Shown here: one piece after another, positions 1 through 2,090 of the stretch | Layout: each line of letters opens with the position of its first letter | How positions within the stretch are numbered: position 1 is the stretch's first letter | From: Verrucomicrobiota bacterium | GTDB lineage: Bacteria > Verrucomicrobiota > Verrucomicrobiia > Limisphaerales > CANJSG01 | NCBI GenBank assembly: GCA_038209745.1 | Contig: JBBQXJ010000028.1 | Coordinates: 1-52,942 of the forward strand | Length of the DNA: 52,942 nt | Direction: 5' to 3' | The notes under the pieces: generated by a model | Databases searched by the model: none | What the model was told of the DNA's origin: nothing | Seen by the model: only the letters and a program-made list of their open reading frames with translations | Program-made: the position numbers and the translations under genes

Positions 1-594
1 ACCGTCTACCCTGTCTTCCGCCGCTGGACCAAGGACGGCACCTGGGCCGTCATCAACGCCCGGCTCCGTGCGAGGGTGCGCCACGCCGCCGGCAAGAACT
101 GCCAGCCCTCGGCCGGCGTCCTCGACCGCCAGAGCGTGAAGTCCAGTCCCCACGGCAGCCGGGTCGGCTACGACGCGGCCAAGAAGATCAAGGGCCGCCA
201 ACGCCACCTCCTGGTGGATACCCTCGGCATGGTGCTGGCCGTGAAGGCCACCCCCGCCAGCAGGCCCGAACGGGTCGGCGGCCTCGCCGTGCGGGCCACC
301 GTGCTCTGCTGGCTGCGCTGGTTCAAGAAGCGGTGGGTCGGCGGCGGCTACACCGGAGAGGACTTCGCCAAAAAGGCCCGCGAACACCGGCCCGCGCTGG
401 GGGTCGAGGTCGTCAAACGCAACGAGGTCGCCACCGGCTTCGTGGTCCTGCCCCAGCGCTGGATCGTCGAACGCACCTTCGGTTGGCTCATGCAGAACAG
501 ACGCCTCGTCCCCGACCACGAGACCCCCGAAGCCAGCGCCGAAGCCTTTGTCTACCTCGCCATGATCCGCCTCATGCTCAACCGACTCGCTTGA
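1..594 (+). mobile_element. IS5-family transposase, 5' end outside the window, probably degenerate
   Basis: Frame 1 is open from base 1 (TVYPVFRRWTKDGTW...). IS5 motifs LDRQSVK, GYDAAKKIKGRQRHLLVDTLG, VEVVKR and RWIVERTFGWL are present. The second DDE Asp appears replaced (WVGGGY vs usual WADGGY). Confidence 0.9.
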
Positions 595-817: not shown

Positions 818-1198
818 CTATCGATTCTTGGCCAATAGTGTGATCCCGAGCACTCCGAGCACCGCTCCGCCGAGCATCCCGACCACTGCGGTAGCCCGCC
901 CCCACCAACTGCTAGATTCCGTCAGAAGCATCCAGGACAGAACCACCAACGCCCCATCAGCCGCCAATAGAATGGCTCCCAAGGAAGAAACGGACAAAGG
1001 AGCCAAGGCAGAGCCACCGGATTCTCCCGACGGGACCGCTCCCGTCTCTTTCGCTCCCTTGTCCTGTCCCCGCTTGAGGAATTGCCGTATTCCGGGGCGA
1101 TCCACATTGGTCACGGAGGCGCTGTCCGCCCGGGAGTCTTCACCCTTGGGCCGGTCCATCAACGATTCCAAACCACGTCCTAATCCGCGCTTCGACAC
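818..1198 (-). CDS. Small membrane protein with a ParB-like N-terminal LGRGL peptide and two C-terminal transmembrane helices (126 aa)
   Basis: GTG start at 1198 within ORF 818..1396 gives MSKRGLGRGLESLMDRPKG, a polar linker, then hydrophobic segments LGAILLAADGALVVLSWMLL and ATAVVGMLGGAVLGVLGITLLA followed by KNR. Divergent from the M48 gene and does not overlap it. Confidence 0.75.
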   Translation of the reverse strand: MSKRGLGRGLESLMDRPKGEDSRADSASVTNVDRPGIRQFLKRGQDKGAKETGAVPSGESGGSALAPLSVSSLGAILLAADGALVVLSWMLLTESSSWWGRATAVVGMLGGAVLGVLGITLLAKNR

Positions 1199-1295
1199 GG
1201 GCGGAGCCTCGGACAAAGCCGTTTTGGGCACAATACCGAAGCAAGGAAGGAGCCCACCTCTTGAGAATCCGTCCAGGTTCTGCAAACTTTCGGCC

Positions 1296-2090
1296 ATGAA
1301 ACGAGCTCTGCTTTCCGTCCTGGCCGCCCTGATCGCCGTTCCTCTCTTCACCGCTTGCAACACGGTCGCCATCACCGGCCGCCGCCAGGTGAACATCTAT
1401 TCGCCCGCCGAAGAGATGCAGCTTGGCTTGGCCAGCTTCACCCAGATGAAGCAGGAGCAGAAGGTGAGCAAGGATCCGGCGGGGAACGCGCTCCTGACCA
1501 AGGTCGGCAAGAAGATCGCCGCCATCGCCCAGCCGGACATGCCGGATGCGCAGTGGGAGTTCGTCCTCTTCGACAGTCCGGAAGCCAATGCCTTCTGCCT
1601 GCCCGGCGGCAAGGTGGGCGTCTACACCGGCATTCTTCCGGTCACCAAGGACGAGACCGGATTGGCCGTCGTGCTCGGCCATGAGATCGCCCACGCCGTG
1701 GCCCATCACGGCGGCGAACGCATGACCGCCGCCGCCGGCATGCAGGCGCTCGGCCAGATCGGGAGCGCCTATGCTTCCGCCAAAGGGGTCAGCGCGGGCA
1801 ACCTCGCCCTCGCGCAGCAGCTCTATGGTGTCGGCGCCCAAGTCGGAGCCGTGCTGCCCCATAGCCGCGCGCAGGAGAGCGAGGCCGACCACATCGGCCT
1901 GATCTACATGGCGCGGGCCGGTTACGATCCGGAACAGGCCGTCGCCTTCTGGCAACGCTTCGCCGACTACGCCAAGAGCGCGGGCGGCGATTCGAGCCCC
2001 TGGTTCCTCCGCACCCACCCGTTGGATCAGACCCGCATCGACCAGCTCAAGGGCTGGATGGCGGAGGCCAAAGGCCAGATGCCGAAGTGA
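1296..2090 (+). CDS. M48 family Zn metallopeptidase, lipoprotein
   Basis: ATG 1296, MKRALLSVLAALIAVPLFTAC (lipobox), NAFCLPGG, HEIAH, ESEADHIG, FLRTHP. Confidence 0.93.
   Translation: MKRALLSVLAALIAVPLFTACNTVAITGRRQVNIYSPAEEMQLGLASFTQMKQEQKVSKDPAGNALLTKVGKKIAAIAQPDMPDAQWEFVLFDSPEANAFCLPGGKVGVYTGILPVTKDETGLAVVLGHEIAHAVAHHGGERMTAAAGMQALGQIGSAYASAKGVSAGNLALAQQLYGVGAQVGAVLPHSRAQESEADHIGLIYMARAGYDPEQAVAFWQRFADYAKSAGGDSSPWFLRTHPLDQTRIDQLKGWMAEAKGQMPK

What the first reader, a model, noticed from the sequence alone, without database searches (positions are those of the whole stretch)
818..1198. Membrane-tethered ParB-like ParA-activating peptide with no DNA-binding domain
Seen: a 126-aa minus-strand protein hidden under a spurious plus-strand ORF extension. 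It starts MSKRGLGRGLESLM, then has a ~55-aa polar linker with a second amphipathic patch (RPGIRQFLKRG), and ends in two hydrophobic helices. It has no ParB CTPase (GxRR) box and no HTH, and no parA or parB lies in the window. Known: the extreme N-terminal basic LGRGL motif of chromosomal ParB/Spo0J binds ParA/Soj and stimulates its ATPase. Inference: this may be a membrane-anchored ParA modulator or tether that shapes the ParA gradient or links segregation to the membrane, pole or septum. I know of no description of this architecture. Best candidate for a new system in this window.
Basis: partly seen in the sequence, partly recalled or inferred. Interest (0 to 1): 0.8.

Follow-up and report, generated by a model that had tools for sequence, protein, structure and literature searches.

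The report
Membrane protein carrying ParB's ParA-binding peptide
A small, previously unannotated membrane protein, conserved across one order of Verrucomicrobia, begins with the same short peptide that the chromosome-segregation protein ParB uses to grip and switch on its motor ParA, so it probably links that motor to the cell membrane.

Summary
Window 818-1198 (minus strand) encodes a real 126-aa protein with a GTG start. It has a ParB-type N-terminus (MSKRGLGRGLESLM), a disordered linker with a second conserved motif, and a two-helix membrane hairpin.

I verified relatives in 69 further loci (68 genomes) of the same order of Verrucomicrobiae. All 70 loci keep LG[RK]x[LI]xxL[LM]. In 57 of 68 loci where it could be judged, a start codon lies exactly 5 codons upstream. 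That is the spacing in the ParB genes of the same genomes (59 of 62). The two consensus N-termini agree over residues 1-11. Synonymous codons vary freely at the invariant residues.

The protein has no ParB CTPase domain, no HTH and no Pfam or NCBIfam family. Sources that name it call it "hypothetical protein", and gene callers usually cut the motif off.

The hairpin, with an invariant mid-helix Asp, is shared with other Verrucomicrobiae proteins, including a membrane-anchored GrpE-like paralogue in this genome.

Best reading (about 0.55): a membrane-anchored ParB mimic that binds the chromosomal Soj-type ParA. Binding is inferred, not shown. My searches found no description in print. The scan's own index held no look-alike of this protein.

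The parts
818..1198 (-). Coding sequence of the 126-aa protein (GTG start at 1198-1196, stop at 820-818)
   Evidence: Homologues with the same start position relative to the motif: 57 of 68 loci. In several loci an upstream stop lies 1-8 codons before that start.
1207..1210 (-). GAGG, a possible ribosome-binding site 8 nt upstream of the GTG start
   Evidence: Read. Its function is inferred only.
1157..1198 (-). Residues 1-14, MSKRGLGRGLESLM: ParB-type ParA-binding motif at the extreme N-terminus (LGRGL = residues 6-10, Arg8)
   Evidence: Family logo M-[SA]-K-P-[VA]-L-G-[RK]-G-L-G-x-L-[ML]. ParB logo of the same genomes M-[SA]-K-[PTS]-[AV]-L-G-R-G-L-[GS]-A-L-L. The family profile matches the genome's own ParB N-terminus at E 8e-6. 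Synonymous codons vary at invariant residues.
1067..1099 (-). Residues 34-44, RPGIRQFLKRG: second conserved motif in the linker, modelled as a short helix (38-48)
   Evidence: G36 is nearly invariant in A2. Motif logo. Helix, at low confidence (pLDDT about 58).
917..991 (-). Residues 70-94: first membrane helix, holding the invariant Asp81 (bases 956-958)
   Evidence: AlphaFold2 helix, pLDDT 84-88. D81 is invariant in 45 sequences. The same Asp is invariant in the paralogous hairpin proteins.
824..907 (-). Residues 98-125: second membrane helix, rich in small residues (LGAxL), followed by a basic C-terminal end (KNR)

Best explanation
The gene encodes an integral membrane protein that displays the ParA-binding peptide of the host's own ParB, on a long flexible tether at the cytoplasmic face of the membrane.

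Shown:
- The first 11 residues match the ParB consensus of the same order, with the same spacing from the start codon.
- The peptide is under protein-level selection.
- The next 55-100 residues are low-complexity and modelled as disordered.
- The C-terminus is a tight two-helix hairpin that other Verrucomicrobiae proteins also use as an anchor.

Inferred:
- The N-terminus faces the cytoplasm.
- The peptide docks at the dimer interface of the ATP-bound chromosomal Soj-type ParA (contig C59), as ParB peptides do.
- It thereby recruits nucleoid-bound ParA, and the DNA under it, to the membrane. With DNA it may trigger ATP hydrolysis, acting as a peripheral sink or competitor of ParB that shapes where ParA sits.
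- Equally, the same contact could let the ParA gradient distribute whatever membrane complex the hairpin joins.
- Single ParB peptides bind ParA weakly (PMC12462528). The second motif, or pairing of hairpins, may supply the needed second contact.
For: 1. All 70 verified loci carry LG[RK]x[LI]xxL[LM] at the N-terminus. 57 of 68 judged have a start codon exactly 5 codons upstream and 4 more have it 4 codons upstream.
2. ParB of the same genomes: of 65 loci read, 62 showed the motif and 59 have ATG 5 codons upstream. The two logos share residues 1-11.
3. The family profile hits the genome's own ParB N-terminus (E 8e-6) and those of two relatives.
4. In the whole genome only ParB and this gene combine the motif with that start spacing.
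5. Leu6 uses all 6 codons, Gly7 uses 4 and Arg8 uses 6 Arg codons across 57 genes. Selection is therefore on the peptide, not the DNA.
6. L6, G7 and L13 are invariant, so the motif is the best-conserved part of the family.
7. This motif is the ParA-binding and ParA-activating element of ParB:
   - PMC12462528 (passages read): necessary for ParA binding, and a 20-residue peptide stimulates the ParA ATPase with DNA.
   - PMC11229316 (abstract): a 10-residue peptide binds near the ParA dimer interface.
   - PMC12704722 (passages): the motif is defined as (L|F|I)G[K|R]G(L|F|I).
   - PMC9927451 (passages): it is required for ParA binding.
8. The genome has one canonical Soj-type ParA (E 1e-77 to a solved ParA, E 1e-58 and 1e-56 to the two H. 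pylori Soj chains). Phe aligns with H. pylori Soj Phe52, the contact of the peptide's Arg (the residue count is mine).
9. The PF13614 scan found nothing that looks like MinD. Its other four matches are one ParA-like gene, two proteins of about 720 aa and one of 348 aa, which I read (untested) as tyrosine-kinase-like and Mrp-like. The ParA-like gene sits with a replication initiator.
10. The linker is modelled as disordered and the hairpin as confident helices.
Against: - No experiment or reliable model of the contact exists.
- The gene is not next to parA or parB in the loci scanned. Pfam scans of neighbours covered 44 loci, in 39 of them only the two immediate neighbours. By coordinates, parB lies about 2.4 kb away only in two genomes of one genus.
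- Position 12 is Ala in 59 of 59 ParBs and never among the commonest residues there in the family. Position 9 departs from Gly in 8 of 57 members. The peptide is therefore tuned differently from ParB's.
- Arg versus Lys at the central position does not track ParB. Of 8 genomes with a Lys member and a parsed ParB, 7 have Arg in ParB.
- ParA occurs in nearly all genomes searched, so co-occurrence says nothing.
- Near-full-length matches were seen in only about 30% of the order's sampled genomes. Either the protein is dispensable or the search is insensitive.
- The mostly GTG start (47 of 67) may mean low expression.
- The Phe52-equivalent column is Leu in the consensus of 21 related ParAs.
Confidence: 0.55

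Rival explanations
1. Cargo-adaptor reading. The same ParA contact exists, but its purpose is to let the nucleoid-bound ParA gradient space or partition a membrane-embedded complex that the hairpin belongs to. This would resemble how McdB, TlpT or PomX couple their cargo to ParA-like ATPases. The protein would be an adaptor, not a regulator of chromosome segregation.
For: - The hairpin, with an invariant mid-membrane Asp, is a shared module also found on a GrpE-like protein and on long coiled-coil proteins. That suggests it docks onto a common membrane partner.
- Partners of ParA/MinD ATPases generally act through short N-terminal peptides (bioRxiv 10.1101/2025.12.01.691545 on PomX/PomY, abstract in a search listing only; the McdB and TlpT examples are recalled).
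Against: - Known adaptors usually have a dedicated ATPase encoded beside them. None is beside this gene.
- No cargo has been identified.
- The hairpin partner is hypothetical.
Confidence: 0.2
2. The peptide addresses another deviant-Walker-A ATPase of the ParA/MinD superfamily in the cell. Candidates are the two proteins of about 720 aa that I read as tyrosine-kinase-like, the protein that I read as Mrp/ApbC-like, or plasmid-type ParAs. This would be comparable to the two-helix membrane modulators that activate cytoplasmic BY-kinases in Firmicutes (CapA/CapB, TkmA/PtkA; recalled).
For: The genome encodes such proteins. A membrane protein with two helices and a cytoplasmic activating peptide is a known design for that superfamily (recalled).
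Against: - The peptide copies the chromosomal ParB motif residue for residue.
- At about 720 aa the two kinase-like proteins are long enough to carry their own membrane part (inference from length).
- The plasmid-type ParA has its own small partner and a replication initiator beside it. A mobile-type module is unlikely to be the constant partner of an order-wide family (inference; its distribution was not searched).
Confidence: 0.07
3. The likeness to ParB reflects only a shared origin: a copied 5' end of parB fused to a hairpin gene, or convergence. The peptide would now serve something unrelated to ParA, such as assembly, turnover or regulation of the hairpin module.
For: - Systematic differences from ParB at positions 12 and 14-16.
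- No genomic link to par genes in most loci.
- The commonest neighbour is an SNF2-family helicase, in 9 of 44 loci.
Against: - The residues kept invariant (L6, G7, L10, L13 and the central R/K) are the ones that define the ParA-binding motif (PMC12704722).
- Conservation of the exact N-terminal spacing over an order-wide divergence to about 25% identity argues for the same binding geometry.
Confidence: 0.16
4. Not a gene: a chance open frame opposite or beside the M48 peptidase gene.
For: - Gene callers predict only a 95-aa truncated form here (P0002).
- The start codon is GTG.
Against: - 70 loci in 69 genomes keep the frame, the start and three conserved elements.
- Codon usage shows protein-level selection.
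- AlphaFold2 gives a confident hairpin.
- The real M48 gene starts about 100 bp away on the other strand and does not overlap.
Confidence: 0.02

Closest known systems
[quoted passage not shown]
   Same: Same residues, same central Arg/Lys and the same place at the extreme N-terminus. In this order, both proteins also have the same five-residue lead (M-S/A-K-P-A/V) (PMC12704722, PMC12462528).
   Different: There is no CTPase domain, no HTH and no dimerisation domain; the carrier is a membrane hairpin. Position 12 is polar or acidic instead of the invariant Ala. The start codon is mostly GTG, against ATG in ParB.
PadC of Myxococcus xanthus (ParB-like adaptor that holds ParA on the bactofilin scaffold)
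   Same: A non-centromere protein that carries a ParA-binding motif and parks ParA on a fixed cell structure (PMC12704722, passages; PMC5703909, search listing only).
   Different: PadC keeps the ParB CTPase fold and binds a cytoskeletal polymer. The protein here has no ParB fold and is itself in the membrane.
Membrane-anchored polar ParA partners TipN (Caulobacter) and HubP (Vibrio)
   Same: Membrane proteins that contact ParA and bias its distribution (recalled, not checked in a paper here).
   Different: They are large, coiled-coil or repeat-rich landmark proteins. They are not known to use a ParB-type peptide. I ran no sequence comparison against them.
ATPase-activating partners of other ParA/MinD ATPases (PomX/PomY, McdB, MinE)
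   Same: They act through a short, positively charged N-terminal peptide on a dimeric deviant-Walker-A ATPase (bioRxiv 10.1101/2025.12.01.691545, abstract in a search listing; the others are recalled).
   Different: Their peptides differ in sequence, and their ATPases are dedicated and usually encoded alongside.
Noc of Bacillus subtilis
   Same: A relative of the ParB system that ties DNA-bound complexes to the membrane (PMC4331003 and PMC8429893, abstracts in a search listing).
   Different: Noc is a full ParB-fold CTPase that lacks the ParA-binding motif and reaches the membrane through an amphipathic helix. This protein is the reverse case: it has the motif, lacks the fold and has true membrane helices.

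Membership tests
ParB/Spo0J partition proteins | ParB_N CTPase domain (PF02195, GERR box) | tested here: not met
   Pfam finds no such hit in the window protein or in any of 45 members. The same model finds the genome's true ParB at E 6e-33.
ParB/Spo0J partition proteins | Helix-turn-helix parS-binding domain and C-terminal dimerisation domain | tested here: not met
   The protein has 126 residues. After the linker only two hydrophobic helices remain. No Pfam or NCBIfam domain is found.
ParB/Spo0J partition proteins | N-terminal ParA-binding motif (L|F|I)G[K|R]G(L|F|I) as defined in PMC12704722 | tested here: met
   The window protein has LGRGL at residues 6-10. Of the 57 members with the standard start, position 6 is Leu in 57, position 7 Gly in 57, position 8 Arg or Lys in 57, position 9 Gly in 49 and position 10 Leu or Ile in 57.
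ParA partner / ATPase-activating peptide proteins (functional class) | Physical binding to a ParA-ATP dimer and stimulation of its ATPase | not testable with these tools
   This needs peptide binding and ATPase assays with the cognate ParA, or a validated complex model.
ParA partner / ATPase-activating peptide proteins (functional class) | Cognate ParA-type ATPase present in the same genome | tested here: met
   A Soj-type ParA lies on contig C59. ParA was found in 38 of 41 related genomes at E<=1e-40, and as fragments at contig ends in 2 of the other 3.
Two-helix integral membrane hairpin shared in Verrucomicrobiae (unnamed) | Two hydrophobic helices with an invariant Asp in the first and a small-residue LGAxL stretch in the second | tested here: met
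   A2 has D81 invariant. A4 has the matching Asp invariant. Profile-profile comparison gives probability 98%, E 2.5e-13 over 63 columns. Membrane segments can inflate such scores.
Two-helix integral membrane hairpin shared in Verrucomicrobiae (unnamed) | Cytoplasmic N-terminus (N-in, C-in topology) | not tested
   Inferred from the absence of a signal peptide and from the long charged N-terminal segment. No topology predictor or reporter data were available.

The most novel reading that the evidence does not exclude
An integral membrane protein has copied the ParA-binding peptide of ParB. It uses that peptide to couple the chromosome-segregation ATPase directly to the cytoplasmic membrane.

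It would be one of several Verrucomicrobiae proteins in which a lineage-specific hairpin anchors a regulator of a cytoplasmic ATPase at the membrane. Here the regulator is a ParA activator; in the paralogue it is a GrpE-like exchange factor for DnaK.

This would be a ParB-independent, membrane-based input into the ParA cycle.
Probability: 0.5. Interest if true: 0.8.

Novelty: new variant of a known kind. Interest (0 to 1): 0.68.

Why it matters
How ParA gradients are shaped by anything other than ParB is known only from a few species-specific polar factors, and none of them uses the ParB peptide on a membrane anchor. A minimal protein made of peptide, tether and hairpin would be a simple natural tool for testing what happens when ParA activation is moved from the centromere to the membrane.

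It would also be a first handle on chromosome organisation in Verrucomicrobia, where almost nothing is known.

There is a practical lesson for annotation. Because the start is GTG, gene callers truncate most members and remove the motif. Similar peptide-bearing partners may be missed elsewhere.

Tried and rejected
- **Complex prediction.** Chains were the ParA dimer, 2 ATP and residues 1-50 of the protein. The verdict was "no answer" (score 0.02, mark 0.32) and the controls were not run. This is no evidence either way.
- **RNA evidence.** No RNA holder was listed. Twenty DNA runs from sediment or soil metagenomes hold all or part of the stretch.
- **Single-protein searches.** These found few relatives: 3 and 7. 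Most predicted proteins lack the N-terminus. P0009 (406 aa, E 4e-4) looks unrelated and was dropped.
- **Profile search of the protein collection.** It gave only 9 hits because of the candidate cap.
- **The search for related loci.** With alignment A1 it failed, as there was no conserved stretch to search with. With the window protein it found nothing. With the G052 member it returned only that record, titled "MAG: Verrucomicrobiae bacterium".
- **Neighbourhood.** There is no conserved par context. The only recurrent neighbour is an SNF2-family helicase directly upstream (9 of 44 loci). SufE or SufS-like genes lie upstream in 2 loci.
- **Arg/Lys covariation with ParB.** No clear signal.
- **Partial matches.** In one search I set aside the rows that cover only the hairpin, which lie in 250-650-aa frames, and did not count them as members. 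later showed several of this kind to be hairpin paralogues.
- **Fold search.** Not run. The model is a disordered tail plus a helical hairpin, which would give no informative match.
- **Earlier scan notes.** The look-up by sequence found nothing. The look-up by words found one note on a different system.

Full report
**1. The observation**

The minus strand of window 818-1396 is open. GTG at 1198-1196 gives a 126-aa protein that begins MSKRGLGRGLESLM. A GAGG lies 8 nt upstream, at 1210-1207.

The 485-aa plus-strand ORF 633-2090 that covers this region is an over-extension. From ATG 1296 it encodes a 264-aa protein (MKRALL...) with an M48 peptidase domain (PF01435, E 7e-38). The two genes are therefore divergent and about 100 bp apart.

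The window protein has no Pfam family. The contig begins with a DDE transposase fragment at 1-591, so what follows the gene is unknown.

**2. It is a real, conserved family**

Protein databases hold few relatives, and most of those are cut short. The genome's own predicted protein is a 95-aa form that starts after the motif. Others start at the Met of ...LESLM.

Six-frame searching gave the true picture. A profile of 13 sequences (A1) matched 145 of 301 sampled genomes of the same order at E<=1e-3. By my reading of the rows listed, 92 rows in about 89 genomes cover nearly the whole model. The rest cover only the hydrophobic part inside longer frames. Eighteen further matches were not listed.

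I fetched and inspected 70 loci from 69 genomes. The findings were:
- All 70 carry [LIVMF]G[RK]x[LIVMF]xx[LIVMF][LIVMF] at the N-terminus. My script flagged 69, and L040 shows MSKPALGRSLGSLL by eye.
- Of 68 that could be judged, 57 have a start codon exactly 5 codons before the motif and 4 have one 4 codons before. L003 is cut by a contig end.
- In several loci a stop codon lies 1-8 codons upstream of that start, so no other start is possible.
- The start is GTG in 47, ATG in 19 and TTG in 1 of 67.

An alignment of 45 members (A2; mean identity 25%) has five invariant positions: M1, L6, G7, L13 and D81. L10, G36 and L84 are nearly invariant.

Across 57 genes, Leu6 uses all six codons, Gly7 uses four, and position 8 uses six Arg and two Lys codons. 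Selection therefore acts on the peptide and not on a DNA element.

**3. Anatomy**

There are three conserved elements.
- **N-terminal peptide:** M-[SA]-K-P-[VA]-L-G-[RK]-G-L-G-x-L-[ML]-x-G.
- **Second motif:** after a low-complexity stretch comes [ST]-P-G-[LV]-x-x-[LF]-[LIV]-[RQK]-G. Its Gly lies at a median of residue 39. A loose pattern finds it in 65 of 67 members. It resembles the second half of the first motif (G-L-G-x-L-L-x-G).
- **Hairpin:** a tight two-helix hairpin closes the protein.

AlphaFold2 on A2 gives mean pLDDT 70.5. Residues 1-60 score 49-59. Helices 70-94 and 98-125 score 84-88 and are joined by three residues.

My script's hydropathy windows mark hydrophobic segments spanning about 50-60 C-terminal residues in the 67 members, merged into one segment in L060. 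Member lengths run from 114 to 233 residues, median 137.

The invariant Asp sits about 12 residues into the first helix, which places it inside the membrane. I infer a cytoplasmic N-terminus because there is no signal peptide and because 55-100 charged, polar residues precede the first helix. This was not tested.

**4. Likeness to ParB**

The genome has one ParB (contig C12), and it begins MSKSALGRGLGALL. I read the ParB N-termini of 65 genomes that hold the family. Of these, 62 showed the motif and 59 have ATG exactly 5 codons upstream.

| | Positions 1-16 |
|---|---|
| ParB | M-[SA]-K-[PTS]-[AV]-L-G-R-G-L-[GS]-A-L-L-G-G |
| This family | M-[SA]-K-P-[VA]-L-G-[RK]-G-L-G-x-L-[ML]-x-G |

The two logos coincide at positions 1-11 and 13.

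They differ steadily in three ways:
- Position 12 is Ala in 59 of 59 ParBs, and polar or acidic in the family.
- Position 14 is Leu in ParB, and Met or Leu in the family.
- The central residue is Arg in 58 of 59 ParBs, against 46 Arg and 11 Lys in the family.

The family is thus a separately maintained copy and not the product of recent gene conversion.

The A2 profile finds the genome's own ParB N-terminus at E 8e-6. In a six-frame scan of the genome, 20 places carry the extended motif, but only ParB and this gene have a start 5 codons upstream.

**5. What the peptide does in ParB**

- PMC12704722 (passages read) defines the ParA-binding motif as LG-R/K-GL, written (L|F|I)G[K|R]G(L|F|I). It names PadC and KorB as other carriers; both have the ParB fold.
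[quoted passage not shown] A 20-residue peptide stimulates the ATPase only with DNA. Single peptides are far weaker than two held side by side.
- PMC11229316 (abstract) reports a crystal structure in which residues 1-10 of H. pylori ParB bind near the ParA dimer interface, with Arg9 stacking on Phe52.
- PMC9927451 (passages read) shows the same requirement in Pseudomonas.

**6. The likely partner**

A scan with PF13614 found five matches in the genome.
- A Soj-type ParA on C59. It matches a solved ParA at E 1e-77, Thermus Soj at E 6e-68 and the two H. pylori Soj chains at E 1e-58 and 1e-56.
- A second ParA-like gene on C40. It sits beside a small partner gene and a replication initiator (PF10134), which marks it as plasmid-type.
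- Two proteins of about 720 aa, which I read as tyrosine-kinase-like. This reading was not tested.
- One protein of 348 aa, which I read as Mrp-like. This too was not tested.

Nothing that looks like MinD was found.

In the alignment to H. pylori Soj, Phe64 of the C59 frame falls on Phe52 (the count is mine). The consensus of 21 related ParAs has Leu in that column.

ParA was found in 38 of 41 related genomes at E<=1e-40. In two of the other three it appears as a fragment at a contig end. Co-occurrence therefore cannot discriminate between readings.

**7. Surroundings**

Neighbours vary. I scanned all ORFs within about 8 kb at 5 loci, and the two immediate neighbours at 39 loci (74 proteins).
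- No ParA or ParB family appeared.
- The only recurrent neighbour is a roughly 1,090-aa SNF2-family helicase directly upstream on the same strand, with gaps of 8-212 nt. It occurs in 9 of 44 loci.
- By coordinates, parB lies about 2.4 kb from the gene in two genomes of one genus, and about 30 kb away in two genomes of the window's own genus.

**8. The hairpin is a shared module**

A search of 401 genomes of the phylum with A2 found no full-length match outside the order. Only three genomes of the order were in that sample. It did find the hairpin part in 260-950-aa frames in other orders of the class: 19 of 26, 27 of 35 and 3 of 3 genomes in three families.

These proteins start 17-22 residues before the Asp, with ...KWPF(I/L)(I/L)GD... 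They continue as long coiled coils with a conserved C-terminal domain, and have no Pfam family.

The window's own genome has such a paralogue on C68. Its soluble part is GrpE-like (PF01025, E 2.8e-7, 30.8 bits against a cut-off of 25.8). The same holds for the homologue in G019.

Profile-profile comparison of the two hairpins gives probability 98% and E 2.5e-13 over 63 columns. Membrane segments can inflate such scores. However, the shared Asp, the preceding basic-Trp pair and the LGAxL stretch all agree.

The protein thus reads as the ParB peptide plus a tether, mounted on a lineage-specific membrane anchor.

**9. Mechanism**

The most likely reading (about 0.55) is as follows. The peptide binds the ATP-bound chromosomal ParA at the inner face of the membrane. 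It thereby ties nucleoid-bound ParA to the envelope, and with DNA it may trigger hydrolysis. The protein would act as a peripheral sink or as a competitor of ParB.

The long disordered tether fits capture of ParA on the nucleoid surface. The second motif, or pairing of hairpins, could provide the two-site contact that strong binding needs.

All of this is inference from sequence.

The rivals are:
- The same contact, used to let ParA distribute a membrane complex (0.2).
- Another ParA/MinD-type ATPase as the target (0.07).
- A peptide that has kept its form but changed its job (0.16).
- No gene at all (0.02, refuted by conservation).

**10. Comparison and novelty**

The protein fails membership in the ParB family, since it has no CTPase domain and no HTH. 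It does meet the definition of the ParA-binding motif.

Its closest functional analogues are PadC, polar membrane anchors such as TipN and HubP (recalled), and the peptide-bearing partners of other ParA-like ATPases.

Five full-text searches found no paper describing a membrane protein with this peptide. Pfam, NCBIfam and the protein atlas give no family or name. Sources that name it call it "hypothetical protein". Supplements of the papers cited were not read.

The idea of non-ParB carriers is therefore not unique to this locus.

I rate it a new variant of a known kind, with interest 0.68.

Noticed in passing
G000:C68:13187-14149 (+), = L193:1688-2650: A 321-aa paralogue with the same two-helix hairpin (KWPFLLGD...) followed by a GrpE-like domain (PF01025, E 2.8e-7, above the cut-off). 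This is a membrane-anchored GrpE homologue. G019 has the same architecture.
   Followed up: partly
L088, L091, L092, L093 and others (other orders of the class): Proteins of 400-570 aa made of the same hairpin, a long coiled coil and a conserved C-terminal domain (...TAYIGIGNxLxIRGxGPGLSWxKGVPLQFxSIGKWRWE...). They have no Pfam family and are widespread in two large families of Verrucomicrobiae.
   Followed up: partly
L047, L051, L054, L056, L068, L071, L082, L084, L016: A roughly 1,090-aa SNF2-family helicase lies directly upstream of the family gene on the same strand (gaps of 8-212 nt) in 9 of 44 loci. It is the only recurrent neighbour and its meaning is unknown.
   Followed up: partly
L161 (G208:C65:9500-15000) and L165 (G171): In one genus the family gene lies about 2.4 kb from parB, facing the end of a parB / PfkB-like kinase / deformylase block. 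The PfkB-like gene also follows parB in the window's own genome (L001).
   Followed up: partly
window 1-591 (+): A DDE transposase fragment (PF01609, E 6e-18) is cut by the contig start. The gene studied is the first complete gene after it, so its downstream context is lost.
   Followed up: yes
window 1296-2090 (+): An M48 peptidase with a signal-peptide-like start (MKRALLSVLAALIAVPLFTAC...). The listed 485-aa ORF from 633 is an over-extension that hides the minus-strand gene.
   Followed up: yes
G000:C40:7030-7890 (L010): A second ParA-like gene with a 153-aa downstream partner and a neighbouring replication initiator (PF10134). It is probably a plasmid or an integrated element.
   Followed up: partly
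L101-L103 (G006, G003, G004): In three genomes of the window's genus the ParA match lies inside open frames of about 700 aa. This may be a fusion or only a long upstream open frame.
   Followed up: no
family-wide (67 loci): 70% of the family's genes start with GTG, while ParB of the same genomes starts with ATG (59 of 59). Gene callers therefore pick a later ATG and delete the motif from database entries.
   Followed up: yes
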